Below are positions 12,305 to 32,291 of a stretch of 32,291 bases of DNA, piece after piece. The stretch lies in the IMG/VR virus record IMGVR_UViG_3300045988_153208; one strand, written 5' to 3'. The position numbers and the translations under genes were made by a program. Origin of the DNA: a virus. Every line of letters begins with the position of its first letter. The first letter of the stretch is position 1. The notes under the pieces were generated by a model. That model was not told the DNA's origin. It saw only the letters and a list, made by a program, of their open reading frames with translations, and searched no databases.

Positions 12305-12305
12305 A

Positions 12306-13088: not shown

Positions 13089-13090
13089 TT

Positions 13091-13548: not shown

Positions 13549-13584
13549 TTTTTTAAAAAAAATATAATATAATATATATATAAG
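13545..13584 (+). promoter_or_regulatory. sigma70-type promoter cassette copy 7
   Basis: TTGATT 13545-13550, 17-nt spacer, TATAAT 13568-13573, ATATATATAAG. Confidence 0.6.
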
Positions 13585-14292: not shown

Positions 14293-14333
14293 TAGAATGT
14301 CCGAAATTTCGATAACGCAGGAGAGTGATAAGT

Positions 14334-14576
14334 ATGTTTGGATATCACGATGATGATAGATGTTATACTGACCTTTGGAGTCCAAGAGATGACCCTAATG
14401 GTTGCGCCGTAGAAAATCGGGCATTTAGTCCTTACGCGAAACACACCCAAGAAGTAGAAGATATTATTGACGCGCTGGTTCATGCGGACGCGGGCAATTA
14501 TACTATTGACGTCGATGATGACCTGTCGCAGTCTGACCTCGACTATATTAAGTCCGAAGTAATGCGACGTAGGTAG
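14334..14576 (+). CDS. hypothetical acidic protein (80 aa; 88 aa if TAG is read through to the TAA at 14600)
   Basis: GGAGAG RBS 9 nt before the ATG. Ends in TAG, with an in-frame TAA 8 codons later. Confidence 0.5.
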   Translation: MFGYHDDDRCYTDLWSPRDDPNGCAVENRAFSPYAKHTQEVEDIIDALVHADAGNYTIDVDDDLSQSDLDYIKSEVMRRR

Positions 14577-14586
14577 GAGGAAGATA

Positions 14587-16020: not shown

Positions 16021-16057
16021 TATATCCCCCAGTTTGTTGATTTCATCCCCCAAAAAT

Positions 16058-16101
16058 AAGGGTCTTACCTCTCGGCGGTAAGACCCTTATTTGATTTTTT
16101 T
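16058..16101 (+). terminator. rho-independent terminator fused to promoter copy 8
   Basis: AAGGGTCTTACC / GGTAAGACCCTT with a 7-nt loop, then ATTTGATTTTTTT. Confidence 0.65.
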
Positions 16102-16130
16102 ATAAATTTATAATATAATATATATATAAG
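16091..16130 (+). promoter_or_regulatory. sigma70-type promoter cassette copy 8 (identical to copy 2)
   Basis: TTGATT 16091-16096, 17-nt spacer, TATAAT 16114-16119, ATATATATAAG. Confidence 0.65.
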
Positions 16131-16153
16131 ATGAAGAAAGGAAATGATACAAA

Positions 16154-17890: not shown

Positions 17891-17910
17891 CTGGTTCAAT
17901 ATAAAGTATT

Positions 17911-17951
17911 TTGATTTTTTTAAAAAAAAATTATATAATATATATGTAAGG
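17911..17951 (+). promoter_or_regulatory. sigma70-type promoter cassette copy 9
   Basis: TTGATT 17911-17916, 17-nt spacer, TATAAT 17934-17939, ATATATGTAAGG. Confidence 0.6.
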
Positions 17952-18001
17952 TAAAGGAAGACCTTACAACAAAAATAAATTTTTGAAAGAGGTATACAAA
18001 T

Positions 18002-18412
18002 ATGAAGACTACCGATCGCACCACTAAGCGTGATTTTTATGAGGCTATTATCAAGGCTATGGAGACTGGCGAGACTGATGTCGAGCCCACCAAGATTATC
18101 GAGTTCTGTGAGAATGAGATTGCCCTGCTGGATAAGAAGGCCGACAAGGCTAAGGAGCGCGCCGCTGCTAAGAAGGCCGAGGCTGACGAACTGATGGATA
18201 AGGTGTATGCCGTCCTGAGCGATACCGAGTTTATGACTCGTAATGCTGTGATGGATGCCCTGGGTGATATGCCCGAGGACGTGACCATCAGCAAGGTCGG
18301 CGCAAGATTGACCAAGCTTGTTAATAGTCAGGCTGTGGAAAAGTCTGAGCTGACTGTTGCGAACGCTGAGGGTAAGAAATCCAAGTGTATGGGTTATAGA
18401 AAATTGGGTTAA
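18002..18412 (+). CDS. hypothetical Lys/Ala-rich protein (136 aa)
   Basis: AGAGGT RBS. ORF track. Higher GC than its neighbours. Confidence 0.6.
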   Translation: MKTTDRTTKRDFYEAIIKAMETGETDVEPTKIIEFCENEIALLDKKADKAKERAAAKKAEADELMDKVYAVLSDTEFMTRNAVMDALGDMPEDVTISKVGARLTKLVNSQAVEKSELTVANAEGKKSKCMGYRKLG

Positions 18413-18446
18413 TCCCATAACTTTGAGTGTCAAAATTGATTAATTA

Positions 18447-18489
18447 TTCCTCCTCATATTTCATAGTAAATATGAGGAGGAATTTTTTT
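18447..18489 (+). terminator. 15-bp hairpin + T7 (terminator that also sequesters the RBS of the downstream HEG)
   Basis: TTCCTCCTCATATTT / AAATATGAGGAGGAA with loop CATAGT. The right arm contains GAGGAGGAA, the SD for the ATG at 18490. Confidence 0.6.
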
Positions 18490-19284
18490 ATGATTGGTAT
18501 TTATAAAATTACAAATAAAATTAATGGCAAGAGTTATATTGGATAGAGTATTCGTATTGAACAACGTTGGCGAGACCATCAAATGAGAAGTCAAACTTCT
18601 TTAATTCATCGAGCCTTAGAAAAATATGGTGTCGAAAATTTTACATTCGAAGTATTAGAACAGTGTAATCAAGCAGATTTAGACGAACGAGAAAAATATT
18701 GGATTACCTATTATAATACATTTGAAGATGGCTATAATTTAACTCGCGGTGGAGGAGAAGGGTTTAAATATGACGTTGAAGAAGTTTATCAAACATTTCT
18801 CCAATTGTAGAATTTAGCACAAACCGCTCGTAAAATAGGTTGTCATGAAACTACTGTGAGAAATATTCTTCGAACTTATGATATTAATTTATCTATAAAG
18901 CAAGAAGATAAACCAGTAGAATAGATTGACCCTAAAACATTGTAGGTAATTCGAGAATTTAAAACGGTCCAAGACGCCGCTGATTCAGTTAATTTAAATC
19001 GTGCCTCTATTTCTAAGGTTATTAATGGACATGGAATGACGGCAGGAGGATATATTTGGCGCGCTAAGGGAGATACAGAAAAAATTCTTAAAGATTCAAA
19101 TAAACGTTGGAAATGCCCAGTAGAACAAATGGATTTACAAGGAAATATATTAGCAGAATATGAATCAGCAGCAGAAGCGGCTAGACAAATAGGACATCCT
19201 GGTCGAGGACGCCAAATTATATCTGTTTGTAGAGGGAATAATATGACCTCTTATGGTTATAGATGGCGTTATAAAAAGATTTAA
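18490..19284 (+). CDS. GIY-YIG homing endonuclease with C-terminal NUMOD/IENR-like DNA-binding repeats (264 aa; 4 in-frame TAG read as sense)
   Basis: MIGIYKITNKINGKSYIG-TAG-SIRIEQRWRDH matches GIY..YIGQS..R..H with the TAG at the conserved Gln. NLTRGGGEG. Helix-turn-helix-like repeats downstream. No TAA or TGA for 264 codons. Confidence 0.8.
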
Positions 19285-19304
19285 TCGGGACACACCGATT
19301 CTTG

Positions 19305-19340
19305 AATGAGGTTAGGATTTAATTCCTAACCTCATTTTTC
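19305..19340 (+). terminator. rho-independent terminator
   Basis: AATGAGGTTAGGA / TCCTAACCTCATT around a TTTAATT loop, then TTTTT. Confidence 0.6.
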
Positions 19341-19423
19341 TATGGGTCTGCTCCGGGCGAGGTCGGAGACAAAGACCGAAAACCCAAATTAAAATATGGC
19401 TTACTAATTTTTTAACCAATTTA

Positions 19424-19452
19424 TTGACATATATTAAAAAATATGCTATAAT
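19424..19452 (+). promoter_or_regulatory. consensus sigma70 promoter TTGACA-N17-TATAAT (not of the cassette type)
   Basis: TTGACA 19424-19429, exactly 17-nt spacer, TATAAT 19447-19452. ATG at 19477. Confidence 0.6.
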
Positions 19453-19476
19453 AAAAACAAAAAAGGATTTATTATA

Positions 19477-20289
19477 ATGAGATATTGTTTGAAATATATA
19501 AAAAATCAATATATCCAAGAGGCTGATGAAATTCTATTCGCAGATAATCATGGTGATGATATGATTGACGCAATAGAGCAATATCCTCACGCTGATTTTA
19601 TTTATGAGGTCGTTGATGAGCCTGATTGGGATTATTTAAAAATGATTAATAGCAAACTAAATGAAACTGATCGGCGATTAATCATTTCTACTCTTTATTC
19701 TAAAATCGCCCAAGAGGCAAAAGAAAATGGATTGGCGTTTTATTTTTCATTTGCGATTAATAACTTCGCAGACTTACAAGCCGTGTGTGAATTAGGAGCT
19801 TGTTATGCGCTTATTACAGCTCCAATCTTTTTCGAGCAGGATAAATTGGAAAAATTTTCCATTCCACTTCGCTATCGTGCCAATGTTGCATATAGTGGTA
19901 TTTTGACTACAAAGCGCGTAAATGCGAATGCGGCATTTATTCGTCCTGAGGATGTAGACCTTTATGATTATGATACAACAACCATTGAGTTTGGCGCAAC
20001 CCATACTGAACAAGAAGAGGTTTTATACCGTTTATATAAATATAATAAGCGTTGGCCGGGCGATTTGAATATGGTAATTACAACTCTTAATGTCGTGCCC
20101 GCGCCGATGAATCGAATGATTGGGCCAGACTTCGGCAAGCATAGATTGAATTGCGGCCAACGATGCGTAGAAGGCGATACTCTTCAATGTCATTTATGCC
20201 ATAATCAGATGGCATTAGCAAATCCGTCAAAAATTAAGGATTATATAGACAATGTAATTTTACCAGTTAGACAAGAAAAGATAAATTGA
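19477..20289 (+). CDS. hypothetical protein (270 aa)
   Basis: ORF track. Low GC (about 35%). No recognisable motif. Confidence 0.6.
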   Translation: MRYCLKYIKNQYIQEADEILFADNHGDDMIDAIEQYPHADFIYEVVDEPDWDYLKMINSKLNETDRRLIISTLYSKIAQEAKENGLAFYFSFAINNFADLQAVCELGACYALITAPIFFEQDKLEKFSIPLRYRANVAYSGILTTKRVNANAAFIRPEDVDLYDYDTTTIEFGATHTEQEEVLYRLYKYNKRWPGDLNMVITTLNVVPAPMNRMIGPDFGKHRLNCGQRCVEGDTLQCHLCHNQMALANPSKIKDYIDNVILPVRQEKIN

Positions 20290-20326
20290 CAATTTTATTT
20301 AAATATTATATAATATTTATATAAAA
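20286..20326 (+). promoter_or_regulatory. sigma70-type promoter cassette copy 10 (degenerate: TTGACA, ATTTATATAAAATAAG tail)
   Basis: TTGACA 20286-20291, 17-nt spacer, TATAAT 20309-20314. Overlaps the stop of the upstream gene. Confidence 0.55.
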
Positions 20327-20346
20327 TAAGAAAGGAAGATTGATAG

Positions 20347-21387
20347 ATGCGAGTGATGAAAGACTCTGAGTATCTAGCATTTAAGCAGTTAGCTAAGCTT
20401 ACTCAAGATCAAATGATTAAGGCTATGCGTGCGGTGTTAGAGGCTCGTTATACCGATATTATCGCAACAAAGGAATATATTGTAGCCAAGGGAGATATTC
20501 CTATCGGATTGGTTGCCCATATGGATACAGTATTCCCGCTTCCTCCTACTGAAATTTATTATGATACTACACAGAATGTTGTGTGGAGTCCGCAGGGTCT
20601 TGGAGCTGATGACCGCGCAGGTGTATTCGCGATTCTTCAGATTTTGAAGACTACAAAATTGCGTCCGCATATTATTTTGACAACTGATGAAGAGAAGGGC
20701 GGATGGGGCGCATACGCCCTTGTTGAACAGCATCCAGATTTTCCGTTTGATGATTTGAAATATCTGATTCAGTTGGACCGCCAGGGCGCGAATGATTGTG
20801 TGTTTTATGATGGTATCAATGAAGATTTTATCCGTTATGTATCTTCTTTTGGTTTCGTAGAGCATATTGGTTCATTCAGCGATATTAGTATTCTGTGTCC
20901 ATTCTGGGATGTGTGCGGTGTCAATCTTTCTGTCGGTTATAAAAATGAGCATAGTCTCATTGAAACATTAAATATTAGCCATTTGTTCGATACCATCCAA
21001 AAGGTGAAGAGAATGTTAATGGTGAAGGAAATTCCTGACTTTGAGTGGAAGGAAAAATACTATCCTTATTTCACTAATGGGTATCCTCTGGATGATGACA
21101 TTGATGAGTATAGCGCGGCTTATGGTTATAATTGGGTAAATGATAAACGCTCTGTTGATGCTTATACAGTAATTTGTCATAATTGTAAGAAGCCATTTTA
21201 TAATTATGAAACATTCCCCACTAAGAAAATTGATGGTGGAACTATGTTCTTGTGCCCCGATTGTGTGGGCGACCATGCTAATTGGTGCGATTGTTGTGGC
21301 GAAGCATTTGAGCGTACACCGGAAAATGCCGGGGCTACTCTTTGCCCTGACTGTGCGAAAATTGAGAAGATTAAGGTTAAAGGTTAA
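20347..21387 (+). CDS. MH-clan (M20/M28/M42-like) metallopeptidase-like domain fused to C-terminal zinc-ribbon (346 aa)
   Basis: VAHMDTV (HxD), GLGADDRAG (GxxDD), TTDEEKGGWGA (EE) in canonical order. The last His motif is not evident. C-terminal CHNC...CPDC...CDCCG...CPDC. Confidence 0.6.
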   Translation: MRVMKDSEYLAFKQLAKLTQDQMIKAMRAVLEARYTDIIATKEYIVAKGDIPIGLVAHMDTVFPLPPTEIYYDTTQNVVWSPQGLGADDRAGVFAILQILKTTKLRPHIILTTDEEKGGWGAYALVEQHPDFPFDDLKYLIQLDRQGANDCVFYDGINEDFIRYVSSFGFVEHIGSFSDISILCPFWDVCGVNLSVGYKNEHSLIETLNISHLFDTIQKVKRMLMVKEIPDFEWKEKYYPYFTNGYPLDDDIDEYSAAYGYNWVNDKRSVDAYTVICHNCKKPFYNYETFPTKKIDGGTMFLCPDCVGDHANWCDCCGEAFERTPENAGATLCPDCAKIEKIKVKG

Positions 21388-22850
21388 TGAAGAGTTATAA
21401 TTTAGATGAACTAAAACAGCAAGTCAAACACGTATTAGAGTATAGTCAGGGTATTTATGATGTGAGTGAGGACGCTCTTGATAATATGATGAGTGAATGG
21501 GAGCGTAATAAAGCACGATTCATTAATGATTTTATGGGCGGCAAACTCATTGTGGAGTTGTCAGGCAAACGCTCCTTTCATTTGGGAGAAAAGGCAAAAC
21601 TCAAGAAATACAATGATTTTTTGGATTATGTTGTTCTGCGAATGAATAATTATGAGTTATGCCGATTTATTGAAGCGCAGGGCGAAGAAGGATTTTATGA
21701 GAACACCGTAAAAACTGGTTGGGACCATACTAAGAGTGATACATTTATTTCGCCGGGATCTAAACTAATACGAGCATTTAAATATTTCATTGAAGATAAG
21801 GATTTGCTGGAAACTGTTCAGAATGAGGCCAGTCGTATTATTCAAGGAGACTGTATCGAAGGCATTCTTTGTATATCAGTCCATCCTCTTGATTACCTCA
21901 GTTTAAGTGAAACTACATATAACTGGCGTTCTTGCCATGCTCTTGATGGCGAATATCGCGCTGGTGATTTGAGTTATTTGATGGATGGTAGCACATTTAT
22001 CTGTTATCTGAGAGGCGATGATAAACAAAACCTCCCTTCATTTCCCGATGATTTGCTCTGGAATAGTAAGAAGTGGCGTTGTTTGGGCTTCTTGGCTGAT
22101 GATGAAAATGGTATCATTATGGGCCGTCCTTATCCCTATGAGGCCGCAGATATTATTAATGAACTTCGTTGGGAAGTGTTTAATAGAGAATGGAATTTGG
22201 GCCTTGGTAGTTGGCGCGCAGACGCCATTCGTTCGGTTCAAGATCGCCTAACTAACTGGGATGAAGATTTGAATCGTACTTATATCCCTTGGAATGGCCG
22301 TCTTGTAGAACTTGATAAAACTGTTCATGATTGTCCAAGTCCTACTCATTATAATGATATTCTTTTATCCAGTTGTTATTTGCCTATTTATGCTCGTGGT
22401 AAAGGATATTTTGGCAAGAATGATTGGAAGAAGGTTCAGTATCATATTGGACACTCAGTAATGTGTATTCATTGTAATTCTGAGTATGTGTCTCCTGGTG
22501 ATGGCACGATGATGTGCCGTTCTTGTGAGATTAGATATGGCAATTCTGACAGTGATGATATTGTTTGTTGTGAGAATTGCGGTTGTCGTTTATGGTATGA
22601 AGACGCAATTGTTGTTGGAGACAATGGAAATTATCTTTGTGATGAATGTGCTAGTAGAATCACTAAAACTTGTAGAGATTGTGGTAATCCATATTACATT
22701 GATGATTTAACATATCATAAAGACGATGAAGATGAAAACGGCGGATATTATCTATGTGGATGGTGCGAGCAAGATAGGCAGGACACGGAAGAAATTGCAG
22801 AAGATGAATCTTCTACTACTACTATCAGTTTTGATGAGTTTGATCTGTAG
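21387..22850 (+). CDS. large hypothetical Cys-rich protein (487 aa; +32 aa if terminal TAG is read through to the TAA at 22949), paralog of 16154..17890
   Basis: TAATG coupling. ILCISVHPLDYLSLS, WNSKKWRC, YPY and CxxC blocks shared with the 578-aa protein. Ends in TAG. Confidence 0.7.
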   Translation: MKSYNLDELKQQVKHVLEYSQGIYDVSEDALDNMMSEWERNKARFINDFMGGKLIVELSGKRSFHLGEKAKLKKYNDFLDYVVLRMNNYELCRFIEAQGEEGFYENTVKTGWDHTKSDTFISPGSKLIRAFKYFIEDKDLLETVQNEASRIIQGDCIEGILCISVHPLDYLSLSETTYNWRSCHALDGEYRAGDLSYLMDGSTFICYLRGDDKQNLPSFPDDLLWNSKKWRCLGFLADDENGIIMGRPYPYEAADIINELRWEVFNREWNLGLGSWRADAIRSVQDRLTNWDEDLNRTYIPWNGRLVELDKTVHDCPSPTHYNDILLSSCYLPIYARGKGYFGKNDWKKVQYHIGHSVMCIHCNSEYVSPGDGTMMCRSCEIRYGNSDSDDIVCCENCGCRLWYEDAIVVGDNGNYLCDECASRITKTCRDCGNPYYIDDLTYHKDDEDENGGYYLCGWCEQDRQDTEEIAEDESSTTTISFDEFDL

Positions 22851-22968
22851 TCATTAAATACAAGACCTATATATTATATACACGATGAAAATGGCGAATG
22901 GATACCTATTACGCGAGTGCGTCAAATACCTCCGCCAGAAAGTGAATAATTATTTAAATATTTAAGGA

Positions 22969-23268: not shown

Positions 23269-23273
23269 TATAA

Positions 23274-23307
23274 TGAGATAAGTCATTTGACTTATCTCAT
23301 TTTTTTT
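23274..23307 (+). terminator. rho-independent terminator at the early/late boundary
   Basis: ATGAGATAAGT / ACTTATCTCAT with a 5-nt loop, then T8. Confidence 0.65.
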
Positions 23308-23315
23308 GTTATAAT
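23307..23315 (+). promoter_or_regulatory. possible extended -10 promoter (TGTTATAAT) for the AT-rich gene block
   Basis: TGnTATAAT immediately after the terminator T-tract. AAGGAG RBS and ATG at 23348. No -35. Confidence 0.3.
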
Positions 23316-23347: not shown

Positions 23348-24049
23348 ATGTATAATCAAATTATTGAAGAATTAGAAGTTCTTAAATAGAATTTTGATAG
23401 TGAAGATATTGTATCATATCAATTACTTTTAATTAAAATTAAGAAAATTATTGATTTGATTAATGATAAACAACTTGAGGAAGCAGATAAAAGCAAATTA
23501 TCTAATTATATTCGAGATTATTTAGCAAGTTTGCATTTAAATAGAATTTTCACAATTTCTGATTTGAATGAATTATTTATTCCAGAAGTGAAAGATTTAG
23601 ATATTGGTAATAAAAATATTTATATTACAATTTTTAATTTATTCGTGGAAGAATTATCTGATGTAGATAATATTTTTTCTCAAAAACTTAAATACTGTAT
23701 TACAAATATGATTTCTAGAATTGCTGCTTCTGTAGATGAAACAATGGTTACAGAAGATAAAACTCAAGAAACTGTAATTAATGAACCTGTTCAAATTATT
23801 CCAACTATAAATACAGTAAATACTAATTCATTCGATTTGGATATTGATATTACTAATAAAAATTATTTGAAAGAATATATTATGCGTAAAAATTTAAAAC
23901 CTTACAGATGTGATATTTGTGGATTAAGTTCCTGGCAAAACAATCCTCTTATGCTATATTTATACAGTAAAAATCATATTTATTCAAATAAAAATTTAGA
24001 AAATTTGATGTTTTTATGCCCTAATTGCTATTCTCAGATTGGAGAGTAA
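23348..24049 (+). CDS. HNH-like endonuclease-domain protein (233 aa; 1 in-frame TAG)
   Basis: AAGGAG RBS. C-terminal CDICG...LYLYSKNHIYSNKNLENLMFLCPNCY resembles HNH (CxxC...H..N...CxxC) with Tyr where the last His normally sits. Confidence 0.55.
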
Positions 24050-24052
24050 TTT

Positions 24053-25240
24053 ATGTATTATAATTCTTATAATTAGAATTATTTTAATGAATTAAATAAA
24101 ATATTCAATAAATTTGATACTAATAATATTAATGATTATTATAATTTATTTAAATTAATATATGATATATATTTTAATGAAAATGTATTTATAATTGTTA
24201 ATGATGATATAAAATATCAATTAGAATCAAATTTAAAATTACTTATTAAAAAAAATAATTGGTTTATAGATTTTGAACAAACTGAAAAAAATATATTAAT
24301 TTCATTATTTATTATAATTACTTAGAAAATTAATTTTGGAAATTATTATCAAATTAATAATACATTAAAACAATAGATTGAATCATTATTATTAGATAAA
24401 AATTTAATTAATGAAAAAATGATTCATGATAGTAAAAATGTTTTTCATTTAGTTGATAGTTTTCCTGAAAATGAAAGTATGATTAAATTTTTTAAGCAAT
24501 ATAATATTGATATTATGAATTAGGAATTTTTAACTATTGGTAATACGAAAATTCCTAATTTTTATTTAAAACAAAAAAATAAAATGATAGATCATTATTA
24601 TGAATTTTGCCATTTATTATTTAAAATTTATAGTCCAATCTTATATTATGGTGTTTCATTTGAAGAAGGATATGAATATAAAATAACTAATAAAGATATT
24701 GTATTTGATTGTGGCGGAAATATGGGACTATTCGCGCTATACTGTGCTTCAAAAGGCGCGCAAGTATATTGTTTTGAGCCTATGTCTTATATTAGAGATT
24801 TTTTATATGAGAGTCAAAAATTATATCCTGATTTAATCCATATTATTCCTTGTGGAGTGTTTAATAGAAATTAGGAACAATATTTTTCTCAAACCTATAA
24901 TCCAGGAGCTGGATCGAATTCAATATTTCATGAATTAGAATATACATCTGATAGATTATATAAAGAAAAATGTAAGTTAATTACATTAGATTCATTTAGT
25001 TAGAATAATCATATTATTCCTACATTTATTAAAGCAGATATTGAAGGGTCTGAAGCACAAATGCTTGAAGGCGCTTCACAAATTTTACAAACATATAAAC
25101 CAACTATGAATATTTGTTTAAATCATCGGACGGAAGACCAATATAATATTCCTACCCTTATTTATAATATCAATTCTAATTATTCATTTTATTATTTTAT
25201 TGAAGGAGAAATACATTCTAAATTTGTATTGTGTAAATAA
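24053..25240 (+). CDS. FkbM-family SAM-dependent methyltransferase (395 aa; 6 in-frame TAG)
   Basis: VFDCGGNMGLFALYCASKGAQVYCFEP (motif I) and IKADIEGSEAQMLEGA (FkbM signature). No TAA or TGA for 396 codons at about 22% GC. Confidence 0.7.
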
Positions 25241-25242
25241 AT

Positions 25243-26196
25243 ATGCCAAATATTATTTTAACAGAATATTGTAATCTTCAATGCCCTTACTGTTTTGCTA
25301 GTAAAATGATTGAAGAAAAAACAGATGATACTAAAAATATTTCTCTTGAATAGTTAGATATGATTTTAAAATGGTTATTACCTTCAGCAACAAATTTAGA
25401 TCGGATTGGATTAATTGGAGGAGAACCTACTTTACATCCTTAGTTTAGAGAGATATTAGGTAGAATAAATTCATTTAATGAATTTACAAATACTTCTTCA
25501 ATAGTATTTACGAATGGAATTAATTTAAGTGAATTTTTATCTGCTATTGGACCAAATATGTCAATTTTAATTAATGTAAATAAATTGACTGGTAAATCAT
25601 TAAATAAACTTAATAGTGTATTAGATGAAATTAATTATTTAAGTTGGTTTAAAATTGATAAAGTTATTTTAGGATGTAATTTATATCAAAATGAAAATGA
25701 TTATTCTTATTTTTGGAATGTAGTTGATAAATATCCAGATATTTTAAGAATAAGAATGTCTATTACTGCACCCAATAGCAAAGAATTAAGAGTAAATAAA
25801 GAATTGTATTATACTATTATGAAACCTATATTATTACAATTTTTAGAAGAAACTAAAAAACGTGATATAAAAATTTCATATGATTGTAATTAGATTCCGT
25901 TATGTTTATTAAACAATGAAGAATAGAATTTAATAAATCAATTAGGGGAATTAAATAGTTTTTGTGAGCCCGTTATAGATATTACTCCAGATTTTAAAGC
26001 TACTTGCTGTTTTGGTGTTTATGATAATCCCATTCAATGTAATGATTTTAATAATATCGAAGAATTAACTAGATATTTTAAAAATCAAATAGTAATAAAA
26101 ACTATAAATAATAACACTTCCATGTGCAAAGATTGTAAAAAATTACAACTTGCTCAATGTCAAGGAGGATGTTTATCATTTTCTAATGTTGGGTAA
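25243..26196 (+). CDS. radical SAM enzyme with SPASM/twitch-like C-terminal Cys cluster (317 aa; 4 in-frame TAG)
   Basis: CNLQCPYC (CxxxCxxC) at residues 10-17. IGLIGGEPTLHP. C-terminal CCFGV...C...CKDCKKLQLAQCQGGC. Translationally coupled to the methyltransferase gene. Confidence 0.8.
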
Positions 26197-26254
26197 GTAT
26201 AAGTAATAAAGTTTTATAATTTTTTAATTCTAAAAAAGAAGGAGGAATTTTTTT

Positions 26255-26692
26255 ATGGCAAATATTACTTATGAATTAATTTTTAAATTTGCTTCTGGTA
26301 AAGAGGTAAATTTTATCGATGAAGAACATACATTTTCTATTGTAGAAGATTATCGTTCTCCAGTTCTTTTAACCCCTCAAATGTTTGGTATTGATGATTT
26401 ACGTGAGTATTATGCATTATTATTAATTGATGGTAAGCCTATGGAGGATTATGCATCAAATTATTGTAATTTTAAAAATTTTGGTAATTCTATTGTTGAT
26501 TTGCTTAATAATAAAGATACTATTTCAGAAATTATTTTAAAAGATATTGATACTAAAGGAGAATATTTTCATATAAATTCTGATCAATTAGTAGGTATTG
26601 AAGCTGGCGGAGGAACTGATAGAGGTTTTGATAATATAATGGTATACCGCATACAAATTTATTATAAAAAAGTTGGAAAAATAGGTGAGTAA
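26255..26692 (+). CDS. hypothetical protein (145 aa), no in-frame TAG
   Basis: Strong AAGGAGG RBS. ORF track. Confidence 0.6.
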   Translation: MANITYELIFKFASGKEVNFIDEEHTFSIVEDYRSPVLLTPQMFGIDDLREYYALLLIDGKPMEDYASNYCNFKNFGNSIVDLLNNKDTISEIILKDIDTKGEYFHINSDQLVGIEAGGGTDRGFDNIMVYRIQIYYKKVGKIGE

Positions 26693-26694
26693 TA

Positions 26695-27315
26695 ATGGGA
26701 GCTAATGCTACATCTGCGGGTAATTTAGTTAAACTATCTGATTTAGATGCGCTATATTTACGTTTATATAATTTAAAAGTAGCTCATATTAATGATGCAG
26801 ATTAGATTAATAAACCTGCTCTAACAGTTCCACCCAAAAGTAGTGGATTAATCCAAGGTAATAAAGTAGAAGTTTCAACCGCTAAAATTGCTACATTAAA
26901 ATCTGAACTAGCAAATTTAGCTCAATCAAAATGGTATTAGTCTAATACGGAGAATACTATAGTAACAATGACAGATTTTAGTACAAATATTAAAGTACCT
27001 AATGTAGGAGATTTATTAAAAAGCGTAGATTTTAATTTAATTGAAACTGCTATTACCTCTGCTGAAACTATTATACCTACTTATTCAAATAAATATAATG
27101 CTCGTTATAGTTTTCGTTATAGTGGTCATTATAGTTCTGATTATGGTACCTGTTATGATAGTCGTTATGGTACTTGTTATAGTAATTGTTATGGAGGCCG
27201 TTATAGTACTCGATATGGTACTTGTTATAGTTGTTATGGTTGTTATGGTTGTTATCGCAGATATAGTTCAAGGTATGGTAGATATGCTGCAAAAAATGTT
27301 CAAATTAGATGTTAA
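26695..27315 (+). CDS. Cys/Tyr/Gly/Ser/Arg-rich tandem-repeat peptide, candidate radical-SAM substrate (206 aa with 2 TAG from the 26695 ATG; 115 aa if it starts at the 26968 ATG)
   Basis: GGTGAG RBS and TAATAATG coupling at 26695. No TAA or TGA for 91 codons upstream of the track ORF 26968..27315. C-terminal 75 residues are [Y-x-x-X] repeats (YSFR, YSGH, YGTC x3, YSNC, YGGR, YSTR, YSC, YGC, YGC ...). Confidence 0.55.
27100..27290 (+). repeat. degenerate 9-12-nt tandem DNA repeats (CGTTATAGT / TGTTATGGT) encoding the YxxX peptide repeats
   Basis: Visible periodicity. All six reading frames are open across it, which gives spurious ORFs at 27041..27340 (+) and 27077..27292 (-). Confidence 0.7.
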
Positions 27316-27326
27316 AGGTGAATTAA

Positions 27327-28763
27327 ATGTTAATAAATAAATTAGATTTAATGGGATCCAGCAGCTGTGATTTAAAATGTTCTTATTGTTATATTACAAA
27401 AAATTGTTCATTTTATAATTATGATTCCGCCGTTCAAGAAGCTTGGGAAACTGGATCTTATTTAACTACTATTAAACAAGTTTTTTCGAAATTGGATGCA
27501 GACCCTACTCAAATAAAAGATTTAGAATTTTGGGGAGGAGAACCTACATTACATATTAAAGAAATGGCTTCTCAAGGAAAAGCATTAGGATAGTTATTTC
27601 CAGAAGTTGATTTTGTATTAATCCCAACTAATTGGTATTAGATTAATATGCAAGCCTTAGTAGATTTTATTTACAATTTTAATGATGGTATCTCTCCTCG
27701 TGGAAGTAAATCAAAAAATGTTAATTTTCATTTACAATTATCCATTGATGGGCCTCCTGGAGATTTTAATACTTATGGTCATAAAGTACCTTGGGATACT
27801 TATAAAAAACAATTTGATGATTTTTGTTTTTATTTAAAAGAAAAAGAAAATTCTGGAAGAGAATTAAAAAATATTAATATTATTTTCGCTATTAGTGGAA
27901 CCTCTTAGCAAAAATATATTTTAAAAAATTTAAATACTTTAGATAAAATAAAAGAATTTCAAGAATATATTAAAAAAGTTTGTAAATATGTAAATGATGA
28001 ACTAAAACAATTTAAAACTATAGATATATTTTTAGGAACTCCAATTTGGACTCCTACGGTAGCTATTCCAGATTCGACAACCACTGAAGAAGCATTAGAA
28101 TTAAATAAAATTGCACTAATGTTAGAATATAGCGATTATGTTAATGGAATAAAACCTTATAGTATTGATGCTAATGAGATTCAAGGGTTTCATGCAACTT
28201 ATGGAGAATTAAATGTATTGGATAGAAATCACGAATGTCCAGAGTCTAATGAACATGCAATTACATTAATGCCTGATGGAACTATTGCTGAATGTCCCTG
28301 TACCTTTTTATAGAATTTAGATTCTTATAAACAAGAATTATTAAATAATAAATAGTATTGGGAATATAAATCTTGTTTAATTAGAGATGGTAGTTTTTAT
28401 AATCCATTATTAGGTGATGAAAAACTTGATAATTACCATAGTTGGTATGTTTATGGTGGTGGATTTATTGGGACTAATTCTACTTATGCTAATTTAAATT
28501 TAAATATGGCTTATGAAATGGCTTTATCAAGATAGATTGATTATAACTATGCATTAAATCCAGAGTTATTAATGAGACATTATATGGCTATTTTTACAAC
28601 TGCTGAATGCTATCGTGAAAATGTTAATGTGACTCATAATCATTTTTTAACAGATCATAACATGTTTAGGCGTTGGTATAATGGTTATGCCGAATTAGGA
28701 TATAAAGATCATCGAGAGAAGATTAAAAAAATTATGGAAAATGTATTAAAAGGAGAAAATTAA
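27327..28763 (+). CDS. radical SAM enzyme with SPASM/twitch-like domain (478 aa; 6 in-frame TAG)
   Basis: AAGGTGA RBS. SSCDLKCSYC (CxxxCxxC). EFWGGEPTLH. C-terminal HECPESNEHAITLMPDGTIAECPC resembles the SPASM pdGdv..C element. Confidence 0.8.
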
Positions 28764-29947
28764 TGTTAGTACAAGAACAAGATAATCTCTTACTGCGAGA
28801 TATAATAGAACGTAATTATTATACATTTTTTCGTAAGGATGAGTATGTAAATAAAAATTTAAATATTTCTTTTTTCTATGATAATGATTATACTGATTAT
28901 AAAATTATTCCTAATTATGAGTCATTAGAAGATAAAAATGCTAACTTTGAATAGATTTATAATAATTTTAAATTATTTTTAAATTATTATAAAAGCCAAG
29001 GGTTTAATGCTAATATTAACATTCATGATGATAAATTTTTTGATAATTTTGAATTAAATTTATCACTATTTAATTTAATTTATGAACAAGAAATTAAATT
29101 TAAATCATTAAATTTTTATATTAGTTTATATAAATTTGAAGATTTAAATTCTCTATTTAATAAAATTAATATATTAAATAATAAATTTCATATAAATTTT
29201 GTTTTTAGCTTATTAATTTCTCAAATTGATTTATTTAAAAATCAAGATATTAATAATTTAAATTATAAATTAAATATTTTAATTCCTCCACAAATGCCGT
29301 CAGAAGAATTAATATTTAATTAGAAAATAATTGATAGTAATAATTTTAATATTGATTAGTATATTGAAGTTGATTCTGATTTATGGACTATCGAAGCGAT
29401 AGAGGATTATTTAAAATATTTAAATTATTTAATGGATAATTTAAATGATTTAAATGAAATTTTCTTTACAAATTTACCTATTGCTTTACAAGATTAGCAT
29501 GTATTAGATAATACAAATTGTAAAAAAAATTGTGATTTCCAAAATTCATTAAATGTTTTGATAGTAGATTTAAGCATTAATTTATGCCACAAATTTCAAT
29601 TTAAAGATTTAATTATTGGTAATTATATATATAATGAAGAAAATAATAAATTAGAAATTGTAAGTAAAAATCTTCCAACGATAATATTAGGGGCGCATTT
29701 AAAACGTTCTAGCACTCCTCATTGTGAAACTTGTTCTTATGTTAATATATGTCAAGGTTTTTGCTTTATGCGCTCTTATTTAAAATGCTATAATCCTATT
29801 ATACCTATTCAGGAAAGTTGTTTATTAAAAAAAATAAAATATAATTTTATTTTTAATAAATTAAAAAATCAAAATTTTAATATTGATAATAATTTAATTA
29901 TTTCAGATTTATATAAGCAATATTTACATCAAATCTTAAAACATTAG
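28763..29947 (+). CDS. SPASM-motif protein lacking the radical-SAM CxxxCxxC core (394 aa; 4 in-frame TAG)
   Basis: TAATG coupling. AAGGAG RBS. C-terminal HCETCSYVNICQGFC is an exact CX2CX5CX3C, with more Cys upstream. No N-terminal CxxxCxxC. Confidence 0.65.
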
Positions 29948-29961
29948 GGAGGGGAAAAATA

Positions 29962-30231
29962 ATGTATTTACCAATACATAATAATTATTATTATTTATTA
30001 ATTAATACTCCTCTTACTTATCCAATTTGTTTAGATGAAGAAGAAGCTCTAGCTTATTTAAAATATATTAATCGAGATGACTATCAATATAATAATATTG
30101 CTAATTATGATGTTCTTGATTATGAGAAAATAATATATATTGAAGTTTCTTTCCCAAATAATGAAGAAATTCAAAAATTACTTACTAAAATTAAAGATAA
30201 TATTGCAACCGGTTATGCATTAAGGAATTAG
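29962..30231 (+). CDS. hypothetical protein (89 aa), ends in TAG
   Basis: AGGGAGGGG RBS. If the TAG is sense the frame runs to a TGA at 30336, overlapping the next gene. Confidence 0.5.
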   Translation: MYLPIHNNYYYLLINTPLTYPICLDEEEALAYLKYINRDDYQYNNIANYDVLDYEKIIYIEVSFPNNEEIQKLLTKIKDNIATGYALRN

Positions 30232-30280
30232 TATAAAAATCGTCTTTTTGATTTTAGCAATTATAAAGAGGAGCGGCTTT

Positions 30281-31684
30281 ATGAACCTTCAAGCGCCAAA
30301 TATTGTGGATTGCCAAGAGATAACTTGTGATATGATAGAAGATTATCTTGCTAAACGATATCAATAGCAAGTATTAAAAACAAAATTTCCTTTTGATGTA
30401 GAAATACAATTAATTTTAGCTAGAAATTGTAATTTAAACTGTACTAATTGTTAGGCTGGTTGTAATATTAATGATAAAAATGAATTAATGACATTAGATG
30501 AAATTAAATACGCTATCCCTAAATTAAAAAAATTTTTTCAAGATAAAATTTTATAGATAGTTTTATTTGGTGGAGAACCATTATTAAATCCAGAGTATGA
30601 AGAAATTTGCTATTATGTACGAAGTGAATTACCAGAAGCCTCAATAGATATTTATACCAATGGTATTCTTAAATAGAATTGGACTGAAAAAGACTATGAA
30701 TTTGCAGTAAAAAATGAAGTACATTTTACACAAAGTTTATATCCATTAGGAGAATCGTATTTTAATAATACTTAGAAACAAGAAGAATTAATGACTAAAT
30801 TAGGCATTAAACATGAAATATGTGGAAATCGTCCTTTTTTTATTAAAGGAGGTTATAATAAAACAGGAAGTTCAAATCCGAATCGTTTTTTTTAGTGTTG
30901 TCATTCAATGTTTCCTCCTCATTTTTATTTATTTAAAAAATAGCTATGGCGATGCGCACCAACATTAAGTTGGGATAAAATTAATATTCCTTGTTTCCCA
31001 GAAGATTATTTAAATATTGATAATTTGACAGAAGAACGTTTTATCGAATATTGTAGCAAACCATTAAAAATATGTAAATATTGTGGAAACTCAGATGAAT
31101 TAGGATTTGGAAGTGATGAAATAATAACTTGGCATCATTAGAAAGATTTGCCCAGTAATTATGATTAGACTTTATATGATTTATATATAAATAATTATAA
31201 ATTATATTATAAGTATGTCCATGATTGCAAAACTATTCTTCCTTGTTTTGATAATTAGTATTTTATAGATAATATTAAAGCAGAGGATTTGCCTTCTCAT
31301 CCAAGTATAATGTTTTTAAAAAAATTTAAAACAGGATTAGGAGATGTATGTATCCCATTTGATAAAGAATCTTGTTAGGATATAAAAAATTTATTAAAAT
31401 TTAAAAAATTAATTTTAAATTAGAATAATTATTTAAATATAAATTTTTATTTTATTTCATTAGATGGAAATAAGCCAGCGAAATCTATTATTTATCGAAT
31501 GTTTCCTCCCGCTTCTTGCGATTTAGAAGGGAATATTTATTTATTAGAATCAGACAATCCCAATAATTTTTATCAAATATTTTTACAAAATAGTTATTTA
31601 AAAAAGAAAATCTGTATTTTAAACTATAAAGATTTATTAGATAAGAATTATTTATCAAATAAATTTAATGAAATGGATGGTTAA
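30281..31684 (+). CDS. radical SAM enzyme (467 aa; 12 in-frame TAG) with Cys-rich C-terminal half
   Basis: AAGAGGAG RBS. NCNLNCTNC (CxxxCxxC). VLFGGEPLLNP. Later CCHSMFPPHFY..., CSKPLKICKYCG, MFPPASCDLEGNIY. No TAA or TGA for 468 codons. Confidence 0.75.
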
Positions 31685-31687
31685 TAA

Positions 31688-32291
31688 ATGAGACAATTTG
31701 AATTTCCTTATAATTTTGATAAAAAATTGTTATATATTTTACAAACATTTACATCTGGTAATGATATTAATTGTATTTATTTACCTCCATATCTTAAAGA
31801 TTATTAGACAATTTTACGAACTGCTGAATAGGCAGAACAATTAGATAAAATGTCTCGACAAGAATACGAAGATCATCTAAATTTTATTAATTCATTATTC
31901 CCAAATAAAATTTAGATTTTATTATAGAAAACTAATATTTTTTTAAACGCTGAACTCGTAAAATATTATATTAATTTAGGTGTTAAAAATTTTTGTGTAG
32001 CATCTATTGAACAAGCTAAAATTATTAAATAGATTGATTCAACAATTAATATTGTTGGATCAATTGCTATGCAAATTACATAGGAAAAAATAATAAATAA
32101 TTTACAAGAATTTTCTCTTTATTTTGATAGTTTTGTTTTACCATTTTCTGCATCTCGTCAATTATCAGAATTAAAAAAATTACCAAAAAATTTTAATTAT
32201 ATTTTATTAATCAATTCTTTGTGTAGTATTAAATGTAATGGAAAAAATCATTGGAATTTTGATTATAAAGAAGATAAAGAGATATTTTGCC
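31688..32291 (+). CDS. hypothetical protein, 5' partial view (201 codons or more, runs off the window; 6 in-frame TAG)
   Basis: ATG 4 nt after the upstream stop. The frame stays open to the window edge apart from TAG. C-terminal-ward Cys pairs. No confident family call. Confidence 0.5.

What the first reader, a model, noticed from the sequence alone, without database searches (positions are those of the whole stretch)
23348..32291. TAG is a sense codon (most likely Gln, code 15) in the AT-rich gene block and in the GIY-YIG gene
At 22-25% GC, TAA should turn up about once per 15-20 codons in a non-coding frame. Here nine consecutive frames run 89-479 codons with no TAA or TGA but 1-12 TAG each, and TAG occurs at roughly the random expectation of about 1 per 50 codons, so it is not being selected against. 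Conserved motifs such as GGEP and the C-terminal Cys clusters lie downstream of in-frame TAGs. In the GIY-YIG endonuclease (18490) a TAG sits exactly where the family has the near-invariant Gln of K-x-Y-I-G-Q-S. TAG to Gln recoding is known in crAss-like and Lak phages. No suppressor tRNA was recognised in this window.
Basis: partly seen in the sequence, partly recalled or inferred. Interest (0 to 1): 0.75.

Follow-up and report, generated by a model that had tools for sequence, protein, structure and literature searches.

The report
Gut phage reads TAG as glutamine
This piece of a roughly 190-kb gut phage genome uses the stop codon TAG to encode glutamine, mostly within one AT-rich gene cassette; this kind of phage recoding is already known, so the call is correct but not new.

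Summary
The observation and the interpretation both hold.

- **Observation.** In 23348-32290 the + strand reading frames contain 0 TAA, 0 TGA and 43 TAG in 2,972 codons. Composition predicts about 171, 59 and 59. ORF coverage is 23% under codes 11 and 4, and 92% with TAG as sense.
- **Which amino acid.** In 10 orthologue groups from divergent relatives, the sense codons opposite TAG are Gln in 77 of 237 cases. That is a 13-fold enrichment, mostly CAA. The Gln substitution profile beats every other amino acid by at least 150 log-likelihood units.
- **GIY-YIG gene.** Its first TAG falls in a column that is Q in 115 of 120 homologues (YIGQS). A standard-code homologue has CAA there.
- **Stop usage.** No gene in the window ends in TAG (39 TAA, 19 TGA).
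- **Suppressor tRNA.** Contigs of the same lineage (92-98% identical) carry a tRNA with a CUA anticodon, in a tRNA array that starts about 3 kb past the window end. No ordinary tRNA-Gln was seen in that array.
- **Distribution.** TAG supplies 3% of Gln codons in the 49 left-half genes and 33-34% in the AT-rich cassette. Base composition alone predicts 44% and 50%.

This matches the block-wise code-15 phages already described (Borges et al., Yutin et al., Mgcod). It is a new member of a known kind. The less ordinary point is that the recoded module is a low-GC radical-SAM/methyltransferase/glycosyltransferase cassette rather than structural or lysis genes.

The parts
23348..24049 (+). First cassette gene, 233 aa, no family match, C-terminal CxxC pairs. 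One in-frame TAG at codon 14. TAA stop. GC 22%.
   Evidence: orthologues in L018 and L020
24053..25240 (+). FkbM-family methyltransferase, 395 aa, 6 in-frame TAGs at codons 8, 91, 108, 157, 274 and 317. The methyltransferase domain lies downstream of four of them.
   Evidence: Pfam PF05050, TIGR01444 at 67.6 bits
25243..26196 (+). Radical SAM enzyme, 317 aa, with a C-terminal Cys cluster and 4 in-frame TAGs at codons 37, 67, 217 and 228. The GGEP motif follows the first TAG.
   Evidence: Pfam PF04055 and PF13353
26255..26692 (+). 145-aa protein of unknown function. It is the only cassette gene without a TAG, and was used as the exact-match handle to find the source contig and its relatives.
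26695..27315 (+). 206-aa protein with a conserved N-terminal domain and a Cys/Tyr/Gly/Ser/Arg-rich C-terminal (Y-x-x-x)n repeat ending in QIRC. Two in-frame TAGs at codons 37 and 82. Candidate substrate of the neighbouring maturases (inference).
27327..28763 (+). 478-aa radical-SAM-like protein (CxxxCxxC, WGGEP) with 6 in-frame TAGs at codons 89, 105, 194, 329, 343 and 403.
   Evidence: weak Pfam and NCBIfam radical SAM/twitch hits; 70-77% identical orthologues in L018 and L020
28763..29962 (+). 399-aa protein with a SPASM-like C-terminal Cys cluster and 5 in-frame TAGs at codons 64, 187, 199, 245 and 395.
   Evidence: TIGR04085 SPASM at 23.4 bits, below its cut-off
29962..30330 (+). 122-aa ORF that overlaps the next gene. 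One in-frame TAG, conserved as TAG in L018 and L020. TGA stop.
   Evidence: (group 7)
30281..31684 (+). 467-aa radical SAM enzyme with 12 in-frame TAGs at codons 29, 58, 92, 132, 165, 205, 221, 287, 296, 326, 366 and 381. Three of them fall in columns that are Q in every orthologue.
   Evidence: Pfam PF04055; orthologue series P0001-P0009; codon check
31688..32291 (+). N-terminal 201 codons of a 512-aa protein whose C-terminal half is GT8-like. Six in-frame TAGs in the window and 12 in the whole gene.
18490..19284 (+). Free-standing GIY-YIG/NUMOD homing endonuclease, 264 aa, GC 33.5%. Four in-frame TAGs at 18544, 18808, 18922 and 18943. The insertion 18404-19261 is absent from four close relatives.
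   Evidence: Pfam; presence/absence; homologue columns
22848..22850 (+). Single in-frame TAG near the end of the 520-aa gene 21387-22949. The 33-codon tail after it is conserved in the L020 orthologue, so this TAG is read through.
14574..14576 (+). The only TAG in the window that could act as a real terminator. It lies 8 codons before the TAA of gene 14334-14600 and 10 nt before the next gene's ATG. Ambiguous.
23272..23315 (+). Boundary of the cassette: a terminator-like hairpin (13-bp stem plus T-run, 23272-23301) overlapping a near-consensus extended -10 promoter-like site (TTGACT-17-TATAAT, 11 of 12, with TG). These are consensus matches only.
180..22949 (+). 49 genes at about 33-50% GC that are nearly TAG-free. 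There are 6 TAGs in 7,053 codons, 4 of them in the GIY-YIG insertion. All end in TAA (31) or TGA (18).

Best explanation
The window is the first 32 kb of a phage genome of about 186-198 kb from gut metagenomes. The phage has reassigned TAG from stop to glutamine (genetic code 15).

**Shown**
- TAG is translated. It lies inside conserved, selected reading frames and never terminates a gene in the window.
- The residue is Gln.
- Same-lineage genomes encode a tRNA with a CUA anticodon, in a tRNA array of about 29 genes that starts about 3 kb downstream of the window.
- TAG is almost absent from the 49 upstream genes. It supplies a third of the Gln codons in a conserved low-GC cassette: FkbM methyltransferase, three or more radical SAM/SPASM proteins, GT8-like glycosyltransferases and a Cys/Tyr-repeat protein.

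**Inferred**
- The suppressor tRNA is charged with Gln, most likely by the host glutaminyl-tRNA synthetase. Its unpaired U1-U72, G73 and U35 fit the known identity rules.
- The tRNA out-competes host release factor 1.
- Because the upstream, probably early, genes can be read under either code, the TAG-rich cassette and the TAG-containing homing endonuclease can be made full-length only once the phage's tRNA set is expressed.
- The cassette also leans heavily on TTA, AAA, AGA, GGA and ATA, which are the codons served by the adjacent phage tRNAs. Cassette and tRNA array therefore look like a co-adapted unit.
For: **Frames and stops**
- Stop statistics and coding density.
- 58 genes end in 39 TAA, 19 TGA and 0 TAG.
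- All TAGs are conserved in four relatives at 98.7-99.7% identity, and none is replaced by TAA or TGA.
- Purifying selection downstream of the first TAG: 93 synonymous against 39 non-synonymous versus L011, and 31 against 18 versus L007, with 18% synonymous expected at random.
- Pfam and NCBIfam domains extend across or lie downstream of TAGs.

**Gln identity**
- 77 of 237 sense codons opposite TAG are Gln (CAA 64, CAG 13), a 13-fold enrichment. Log-likelihood is -560 for Gln against -711 for the next best.
- Three TAGs of the 467-aa protein fall in all-Q columns, and those Qs are CAA in L018 and L021.
- GIY-YIG column: Q in 115 of 120 homologues, and CAA in a standard-code homologue.
- The C-terminal tail after the TAG at 22848 is conserved.

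**Suppressor tRNA**
- tRNA(CUA) is present in three IMG/VR contigs of the lineage: Rfam tRNA 55 bits, cloverleaf with U1-U72, G73 and CCA.
- Those contigs are 92-98% identical to the window's contig where they overlap.
- One of them (147738) carries both the suppressor and TAG-rich, AT-rich radical SAM genes. It also carries a GIY-YIG gene with TAG at the same YIG-x-S position.
- The array covers 19 amino acids, and no tRNA-Gln(UUG/CUG) was seen in it.
- The only BLAST hits in annotated phage records are tRNA-Gln.

**Distribution**
- TAG's share of Gln codons is 3% in the left half and 33-34% in the block. Composition predicts 44% and 50%.
- Codon usage matches the phage tRNA array.

**Assembly and literature**
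- The GC junction is reproduced in at least seven independent samples, and in a divergent relative, L020.
- The same model is published for other gut phage clades (bioRxiv 10.1101/2021.08.26.457843; PMC9523058).
Against: - The suppressor could not be read in the window's own contig. Its expected position is about 47 kb, beyond the reach of the look-up rules, so its presence there rests on relatives.
- The exact suppressor sequence was not found in contig 141926. That is the IMG/VR relative that demonstrably carries the cassette at 97% identity.
- The tRNA body does not clearly identify as Gln. Its T-arm and acceptor strand are identical to bacterial tRNA-Thr(UGU), and it has C2-G71 and C3-G70 rather than the E. 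coli Gln pairs.
- Overall similarity to a phage tRNA-Gln(UUG) is no higher than to other isotypes.
- Timing of expression, the host, the host's code and release-factor handling are all untested.
- The cassette is not a structural or lysis module, so the published late-gene rationale is only an analogy here.
- A near-consensus sigma-70-like promoter in front of the cassette would, if real, argue for early transcription.
Confidence: 0.9

Rival explanations
1. TAG is a sense codon, but its concentration in the cassette has no regulatory role. On this view the cassette is a low-GC module, possibly acquired from or exchanged with a fully recoded AT-rich phage. In it TAG has drifted towards its compositional equilibrium with CAA. 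The rest of the genome is simply younger in the recoded state, or under different mutation pressure.
For: - TAG in the block is close to, and somewhat below, the compositional expectation: 34% observed against 50%.
- TAGs are spread evenly along the genes, with a mean relative position of 0.44.
- The cassette has a sharply different GC content and codon usage in every relative.
- TAG positions turn over freely between Q codons and TAG among relatives.
- Borges et al. link low GC to the loss and recoding of stop codons.
Against: - TAG is 15-fold under-represented among Gln codons in the left-half genes relative to composition, 3% against 44%. That pattern needs either selection or a very recent origin.
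- The same TAG-poor flank and TAG-rich cassette pattern persists in relatives whose cassette proteins are only 32-77% identical. That argues against a recent transfer.
Confidence: 0.3
2. TAG is decoded as an amino acid other than Gln, such as Lys, Glu, Trp, Tyr, Ser, Leu, Thr or pyrrolysine.
For: - ARAGORN labels the CUA tRNA 'Pyl' by default.
- Lys is the second most common residue opposite TAG, at 32 of 237.
- The suppressor's acceptor and T arms match bacterial tRNA-Thr.
Against: - Log-likelihoods are Gln -560, Lys -711, Glu -760, Ser -799, Thr -837, Tyr -1078 and Trp -1739. Lys and Glu are enriched only 1.6-1.7-fold, which is what Gln's own substitution profile predicts.
- All-Q columns are encoded by CAA in relatives.
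- The tRNA has the normal GG D-loop and TTCGAAT T-loop. It differs from the Thr tRNAs at positions 1, 72 and 73 and throughout the anticodon.
- No pyl genes were seen in any of the DNA read.
Confidence: 0.03
3. The TAG-containing frames are pseudogenes or truncated genes, or the AT-rich block is an assembly chimera from another organism.
For: - Under the standard code the block is 77% non-coding.
- GC drops by about 18 points at 23.3 kb.
Against: - There is no TAA or TGA in 2,972 codons, where about 230 are expected.
- Purifying selection acts downstream of TAGs.
- Protein domains and orthologues extend across TAGs.
- The same junction is assembled independently from ERZ27261223, ERR1136622, ERZ28568875, ERZ28568765, ERR11456524, ERR11477151 and IMG 3300045988. 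It also appears in divergent form in SRR22974097.
Confidence: 0.01

Closest known systems
TAG-to-Gln (code 15) recoded gut phages of 150-210 kb described by Borges et al. (Jade, Sapphire and Agate clades; bioRxiv 10.1101/2021.08.26.457843, later in Nature Microbiology)
   Same: - Gut origin and a genome of about 186-198 kb.
- TAG aligns with Gln.
- A phage-encoded CUA suppressor tRNA.
- Only a minority of genes carry in-frame stops: 13 of 59 here, against a 26% mean for the Sapphire clade.
- Recoded genes are grouped in modules, while other genes stay compatible with the standard code.
- Low GC is associated with the recoding.
   Different: - Clade membership was not tested, because the window has no terminase and their genomes are not in the searchable collections.
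- The recoded module seen here consists of biosynthetic and modification enzymes rather than the structural and lysis genes emphasised in that work.
- It is about 18 GC points below its flanks.
crAss-like phages with block-wise dual coding (Yutin et al., PMC7886860; Mgcod, bioRxiv 10.1101/2022.06.29.495998; metaproteomic proof, PMC9523058)
   Same: - The genome is divided into a standard-compatible block and a TAG-as-Gln block.
- Suppressor tRNA is present.
- TAG-to-Gln has been verified by peptides in that group.
   Different: - There is no sequence similarity to deposited phages.
- The genome is about twice the crAss size.
- It has a large tRNA array.
- No peptide evidence exists for this lineage.
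E. coli supE (glnV) amber suppressor, a tRNA-Gln with a CUA anticodon charged by GlnRS
   Same: - CUA anticodon with U35 retained.
- A weak or unpaired 1-72 position.
- G73 discriminator.
- Gln inserted at UAG.
   Different: - The phage tRNA has U1-U72, C2-G71 and C3-G70, not U1-A72, G2-C71 and G3-C70.
- Its acceptor and T arms are identical to bacterial tRNA-Thr(UGU), not to tRNA-Gln.
- It is therefore not simply a mutated host tRNA-Gln.

Membership tests
Genetic code 15 (TAG = Gln) phage | In-frame TAG inside conserved genes that are under purifying selection | tested here: met
   There are 43 TAGs and no TAA or TGA in 2,972 codons. Protein domains lie across and after TAGs. Downstream of the first TAG, differences are 70% synonymous against 18% expected.
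Genetic code 15 (TAG = Gln) phage | TAG aligns with Gln in homologues | tested here: met
   77 of 237 sense codons opposite TAG are Gln, a 13-fold enrichment and the best likelihood by about 150 units. In the GIY-YIG family the column is Q in 115 of 120 homologues, and CAA in a standard-code homologue.
Genetic code 15 (TAG = Gln) phage | TAG not used as a terminator | tested here: met
   None of the 58 genes ends in TAG. One ambiguous case exists at 14574.
Genetic code 15 (TAG = Gln) phage | Phage-encoded suppressor tRNA with a CUA anticodon | tested here: inconclusive
   It is present in three same-lineage IMG/VR contigs. One of them also carries TAG-rich genes. It is not in the window and could not be reached in the window's own contig. 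The exact sequence was not found in contig 141926.
Genetic code 15 (TAG = Gln) phage | Recoded codon enriched in late (structural and lysis) genes, with early genes compatible with the standard code | tested here: inconclusive
   The strong module bias is shown: 0.85 against 13.4 TAG per 1000 codons. However, the enriched module is enzymatic, no structural or lysis genes lie in the window, and expression timing is unknown.
Genetic code 15 (TAG = Gln) phage | Accessory machinery (RF2, GlnRS) and a host that uses the standard code | not tested
   Only about 37 kb of the 186-kb contig could be read. The host was not predicted.
Sapphire, Jade or Agate clade (Borges et al.) | Placement in the large-terminase phylogeny | not testable with these tools
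   There is no terminase in the window or in the fetched loci, and the reference genomes are not in the collections. There was no megablast hit in INPHARED.
Pyrrolysine decoding of TAG | A pylT-type tRNA (no GG in the D-loop, atypical T-loop) together with pylS and pylBCD genes | tested here: not met
   The tRNA has the normal GG D-loop and TTCGAAT T-loop. No pyl genes were seen in the DNA read. The alignments favour Gln.
tRNA-Gln-derived amber suppressor (supE type) | A tRNA-Gln body and identity set: weak 1-72, G73, U35, G2-C71 and G3-C70 | tested here: inconclusive
   U1-U72, G73 and U35 are met, but the tRNA has C2-G71 and C3-G70. The D and anticodon arms hit only annotated tRNA-Gln in phage records. 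The acceptor and T arms are identical to bacterial tRNA-Thr(UGU).

The most novel reading that the evidence does not exclude
The TAG-rich module is not a structural or lysis block. It is a conserved cassette of about 12 kb at 16-30% GC, holding radical SAM/SPASM enzymes, an FkbM methyltransferase, three GT8-like glycosyltransferases (plus a YcaO protein in one relative) and a protein with a (Y-x-x-x)n Cys/Tyr repeat. The reading is that this is a phage-borne pathway for peptide or protein maturation or glycosylation. Its translation would be tied to the phage's own adjacent tRNA array in two ways: through TAG, and through extreme use of TTA, AAA, AGA, GGA and ATA. That would extend the role of code switching from timing lysis to controlling an accessory biosynthetic pathway.
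Probability: 0.3. Interest if true: 0.55.

Novelty: new member of a known kind. Interest (0 to 1): 0.3.

Why it matters
**Practical value.** Under the standard code, three quarters of this block would be annotated as non-coding or as fragments. Read with TAG as Gln, it resolves into a coherent enzyme cassette. The result also shows that a mobile GIY-YIG homing endonuclease carries the recoded codon. That endonuclease can therefore be made only inside a cell where the code has been switched.

**Scientific value.** TAG-to-Gln recoding with a phage suppressor tRNA and block-wise usage is established for gut phages, so the finding adds a lineage rather than a principle. The part worth following up is the content of the recoded module, its striking compositional isolation, and its apparent co-adaptation with the neighbouring tRNA array.

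Tried and rejected
- **Megablast against INPHARED phages.** Both halves of the window gave no match.
- **Rfam and ARAGORN on the window.** Nothing was found.
- **Codon substitutions in the 98.7-99.7% relatives.** All TAGs are conserved, so these say nothing about the amino acid.
- **Wildcard-anticodon search for a sense-anticodon twin of the suppressor.** Only the same three contigs came back.
- **Isotyping the suppressor by BLAST against E. coli genomes.** No match.
- **Isotyping by overall similarity to the phage's own tRNAs.** This did not discriminate.
- **Isotyping by its T-arm and acceptor 20-mer in bacterial genomes.** This returned tRNA-Thr(UGU), not Gln. It weakens the tRNA-body argument and is reported as such.
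- **Reaching the suppressor site in the window's own contig through the neighbouring 116-aa protein.** The closest cluster belongs to a different, standard-code phage (L022). It shares only three genes with the lineage and none with the window. L022 is therefore used only as a loose contrast: it has tRNA-Gln(UUG), 3 of 23 genes ending in TAG, and no in-frame TAG.
- **Walking along IMG/VR contig 141926 by end-sequence and by the neighbouring tRNA-Tyr.** Both failed.
- **Rejected readings.** Pyrrolysine, Trp, Ser, Tyr, Leu, Lys, Glu and Thr decoding; pseudogenes; an assembly chimera; TGA or TAA recoding. The block has no in-frame TGA or TAA, and code 4 gives the same 23% coverage as code 11.

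Full report
**What the sequence is**

The window is bases 1-32291 of a 186,118-bp metagenomic contig, ENA ERZ27261223 k119_14822. Near-identical DNA (98.7-100%) occurs in contigs of up to 197,687 bp from at least six other samples and in IMG/VR.

All genes are on the + strand. The left 23 kb holds about 49 mostly small genes with phage hallmarks: HNH and GIY-YIG endonucleases, a calcineurin-like phosphoesterase, DUF5052 and several PHROG families. GC is 35-46% up to 23 kb and 18-27% after that. No deposited phage is similar at the DNA level.

**Checking the observation**

With TAA and TGA as the only stops, + strand frames tile 23315-32290. In the ten genes there, the reading frame contains 0 TAA, 0 TGA and 43 TAG in 2,972 codons. 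Base composition predicts about 171, 59 and 59, and the two other frames hold 154 and 284 TAA. The probability of no TAA or TGA arising by chance is about e^-240. ORFs of at least 100 codons cover 23% of the block under code 11 and under code 4, and 92% with TAG as sense.

Pfam and NCBIfam recognise an FkbM methyltransferase and several radical SAM proteins whose domains lie across or after TAGs. The public collection's own gene caller had already called these genes through the TAGs.

- The block continues beyond the window to about 35.1 kb, with three more genes carrying 12, 8 and 5 TAGs.

**Pseudogenes or a chimera?**

Neither holds.
- Four relatives at 98.7-99.7% identity keep every TAG, and none has changed to TAA or TGA.
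- Downstream of the first TAG in each gene, single-nucleotide differences are 93 synonymous to 39 non-synonymous against L011, and 31 to 18 against L007. Random change would give 18% synonymous.
- The GC junction at 23.3 kb is assembled identically from independent samples. It is also present in a relative whose cassette proteins are only 55-77% identical (L020), with flanks at 41-50% GC beside a cassette at 19-36%.

**Which amino acid?**

A search with the 12-TAG radical SAM protein, with TAG written as X, returned full-length orthologues from 96% down to 42% identity. Three of its TAGs fall in columns where every orthologue has Q.

Those orthologues are themselves recoded: their table-11 translations do not match the recorded proteins. 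I therefore worked at the codon level. Across ten orthologue groups from the window and from L018, L020 and L021, 128 columns contain at least one TAG.

Residues opposite TAG, among 237 sense codons in well-aligned context:

| Residue | Count |
|---|---|
| Gln (CAA 64, CAG 13) | 77 |
| Lys | 32 |
| Glu | 23 |
| Asn | 20 |
| Ser | 18 |

Gln makes up 32.5% against a 2.5% background, a 13-fold enrichment. CAA differs from TAG at two positions, so this is conservation of the amino acid and not mutational proximity.

Each amino acid's own substitution profile, taken from the same alignments, was used as a model for the residues opposite TAG:

| Model | Log-likelihood |
|---|---|
| Gln | -560 |
| Lys | -711 |
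| Glu | -760 |
| Ser | -799 |
| Thr | -837 |
| Tyr | -1078 |
| Trp | -1739 |

. The counts are ordered pairs from three or four genomes and so are not independent, but the margin is very large.

**The GIY-YIG gene**

Gene 18490-19284 has four in-frame TAGs.

| TAG | Residues in that column among 120 homologues |
|---|---|
| First (YIG-x-S) | Q in 115 |
| Second | N, K or Q |
| Third | Q in 70 |
| Fourth | E, Q or K |

. A homologue on an NCBI Ruminococcus MAG contig translates correctly under the standard code and has CAA at the first and third positions. Another homologue is itself recoded, with TAG at three of the four positions.

The gene is a free-standing insertion. Positions 18404-19261 are absent from four close relatives, and its GC is 33.5%, below its neighbours.

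**Recoding is genome-wide but TAG usage is local**

Of the 58 complete genes in the window, 39 end in TAA, 19 in TGA and none in TAG.

The left 49 genes contain 6 TAGs in 7,053 codons:
- Four are in the GIY-YIG insertion.
- One is at 22848. The 33-codon tail after it is conserved in the L020 orthologue, so it is read through.
- One is at 14574. It lies eight codons before a TAA and 10 nt before the next gene's ATG, so it could serve as a stop.

TAG supplies 3% of Gln codons on the left and 33-34% in the cassette. Base composition alone predicts 44% and 50%. TAG is therefore specifically avoided on the left, and sits near its compositional equilibrium in the cassette.

**The suppressor tRNA**

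There is no tRNA in the window. A tRNA array starts at about 35.2 kb of the same contig.

In IMG/VR contigs that are 92-98% identical to the window's contig where they overlap, the array holds about 29 tRNAs for 19 amino acids. It includes a 74-nt tRNA with a CUA anticodon (L012 7283-7356, minus strand), and no ordinary tRNA-Gln was seen. Rfam scores the CUA tRNA as a good tRNA at 55 bits. Its cloverleaf has an unpaired U1-U72, G73, an encoded CCA, and normal D- and T-loops. The identical tRNA is present in three contigs.

One of those contigs (147738) also carries AT-rich radical SAM genes with 8 and 4 TAGs just upstream of the array. It also has GIY-YIG genes with TAG at the same YIG-x-S position.

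The amino-acid identity of this tRNA is not settled from its sequence.
- *For Gln:* U1 is rare among the phage's tRNAs and is shared with a canonical tRNA-Gln(UUG) in another phage. The only BLAST hits in annotated phage records are tRNA-Gln.
- *Against:* its T-arm and 3' acceptor strand are identical to tRNA-Thr(UGU) of Lentisphaerota and related bacteria. Overall similarity does not discriminate between isotypes.
- The three positions where it departs from those Thr tRNAs (1, 72 and 73) are the classical GlnRS identity positions. That statement rests on my knowledge of the E. coli system. It fits a switch in identity but does not prove one.

The Gln assignment therefore rests on the codon alignments.

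I could not read the expected suppressor position (about 47 kb) in the window's own contig. The exact sequence was also not found in contig 141926, which carries the cassette at 97% identity.

**How it most likely works**

*Shown:*
- TAG is translated as Gln.
- TAG is never a terminator in the window.
- The lineage encodes a CUA tRNA.
- TAG is excluded from the upstream genes and abundant in the cassette.

*Inferred:*
- The tRNA is charged with Gln by the host enzyme and competes with RF1.
- The upstream genes are early genes that can be read in an unmodified host.
- Full-length cassette proteins can only be made once the phage tRNAs are present. One of these proteins has up to 12 TAGs, so suppression must be efficient.

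The cassette's other codon choices point the same way:

| Codon (share of its amino acid) | Cassette | Left half |
|---|---|---|
| TTA (Leu) | 81% | 10% |
| AAA (Lys) | 95% | 43% |
| AGA (Arg) | 39% | 14% |
| GGA (Gly) | 51% | 16% |
| ATA (Ile) | 24% | 10% |

The adjacent array carries tRNAs with the matching anticodons UAA, UUU, UCU, UCC and UAU.

A terminator-like hairpin and a near-consensus promoter-like site sit at 23272-23315, just before the first cassette gene. These are consensus matches only.

The main rival for the 'why' is neutral drift of TAG in a compositionally isolated, possibly exchanged module. It explains the near-equilibrium TAG level in the cassette and the even spread of TAGs along the genes. 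It does not explain the 15-fold deficit of TAG in the left genes, nor the persistence of the pattern in distant relatives.

**Comparison with what is known**

TAG-to-Gln recoding in gut phages is established. Borges et al. (bioRxiv 10.1101/2021.08.26.457843) report the following:
- Clades of 150-210 kb with TAG or TGA recoding.
- Suppressor tRNAs in 35-40% of recoded genomes.
- In-frame stops in 26-71% of genes, grouped in modules, with early genes readable in the standard code.
- Low GC as a likely precursor of recoding.
- Host GlnRS as the likely charging enzyme.

Block-wise dual coding is also described for crAss-like phages (PMC7886860) and in the Mgcod work (bioRxiv 10.1101/2022.06.29.495998). 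Peptide evidence for code 15 exists in PMC9523058.

This lineage fits that description, with 13 of 59 genes in the window carrying TAG. I could not test clade membership, because there is no terminase in reach.

What differs is the content and composition of the recoded module. It holds enzymes rather than structural or lysis genes, and it sits about 18 GC points below its flanks. No paper in the searchable library connects radical SAM genes with recoded phages.

**Verdict**

The phenomenon is a new member of a known kind and is of modest interest in itself. The cassette is the part that merits a closer look.

Noticed in passing
window 23348-32291, continuing in L004 16038-18831 (contig 32.3-35.1 kb); L018 40-13258: The recoded cassette encodes an FkbM methyltransferase, at least three radical SAM proteins, a SPASM-like protein and three GT8-like glycosyltransferase paralogues. 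The radical SAM proteins give weak NCBIfam hits to PapB-, CefB- and YhhB-type peptide maturases and to twitch/SPASM domains. One relative (L018) also has a YcaO protein upstream. Together they look like a peptide or protein maturation or glycosylation pathway.
   Followed up: partly
window 26695-27315: This 206-aa protein has a conserved N-terminal domain. Its C-terminal region varies in length and has Tyr every fourth residue, rich in Cys, Gly, Ser and Arg (YGTCY, YGTQYPSRY and similar), ending in a conserved QIRC. The pattern is conserved in L018 and L020. It is a candidate substrate for the neighbouring radical SAM/SPASM enzymes.
   Followed up: partly
window 23348-32290 compared with 180-22949: Codon usage in the cassette is extreme and matches the anticodons in the adjacent phage tRNA array (Leu-UAA, Lys-UUU, Arg-UCU, Gly-UCC, Ile-UAU). 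TTA is 81% of Leu, AAA 95% of Lys, AGA 39% of Arg, GGA 51% of Gly and ATA 24% of Ile. In the left-half genes these shares are 10%, 43%, 14%, 16% and 10%.
   Followed up: yes
window 18404-19261 and 15378-18403: The GIY-YIG gene is a presence/absence insertion between the 136-aa and 270-aa genes. The 3 kb upstream of it is only 95.9% identical to the relatives, against 99.4% downstream. This could be a co-conversion tract left by homing.
   Followed up: no
L012 8272-8465 (minus strand): Rfam finds a full-length tRNA match (43 bits) spread over 194 nt. ARAGORN in intron mode calls it tRNA-Arg(TCG) with a 112-nt insertion after position 39. It appears to be an interrupted tRNA within the phage array, and the nature of the insert is unknown.
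   Followed up: partly
L011 19722-19794; L022 1593-1667: Two odd tRNAs were seen. The first is a 'tRNA-Phe(AAA)' in the window's lineage, with C33, an A-C mismatch in the acceptor stem, and U1-A72 with G73. The second, in the unrelated phage L022, has a 6-nt anticodon loop (CUUAAG) with U1-A72 and G73, and lies next to tRNA-Gln(UUG). ARAGORN labels it 'Stop|Leu'.
   Followed up: no
window 22969-23268: A 99-aa ORF (GTG start, TAA stop, normal GC) fills the gap between the 520-aa gene and the cassette and ends just before the terminator-like hairpin. The public gene set did not call it.
   Followed up: no
window 23272-23315: A terminator-like hairpin (13-bp stem plus T-run) overlaps a near-consensus extended -10 promoter-like site (TTGACT-17-TG-TATAAT, 11 of 12). 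It sits at the GC drop, about 30 nt before the cassette's first ATG.
   Followed up: partly
L012 7283-7356 compared with L026-L042: The suppressor tRNA's acceptor stem (positions 2-7) and its whole T-arm are identical to tRNA-Thr(UGU) of Lentisphaeria, Victivallales and Kiritimatiellae MAGs from rumen and gut. This could be a hint about the tRNA's ancestry, about the host range of the lineage, or mere coincidence.
   Followed up: partly
L004 15434-16972 and 18106-18831 (contig 31688-33226 and 34360-35085): A segment of about 430 nt is repeated at 86-92% identity between the 512-aa gene and the 241-aa GT8-like gene, seen. This points to a recent internal duplication within the cassette.
   Followed up: no
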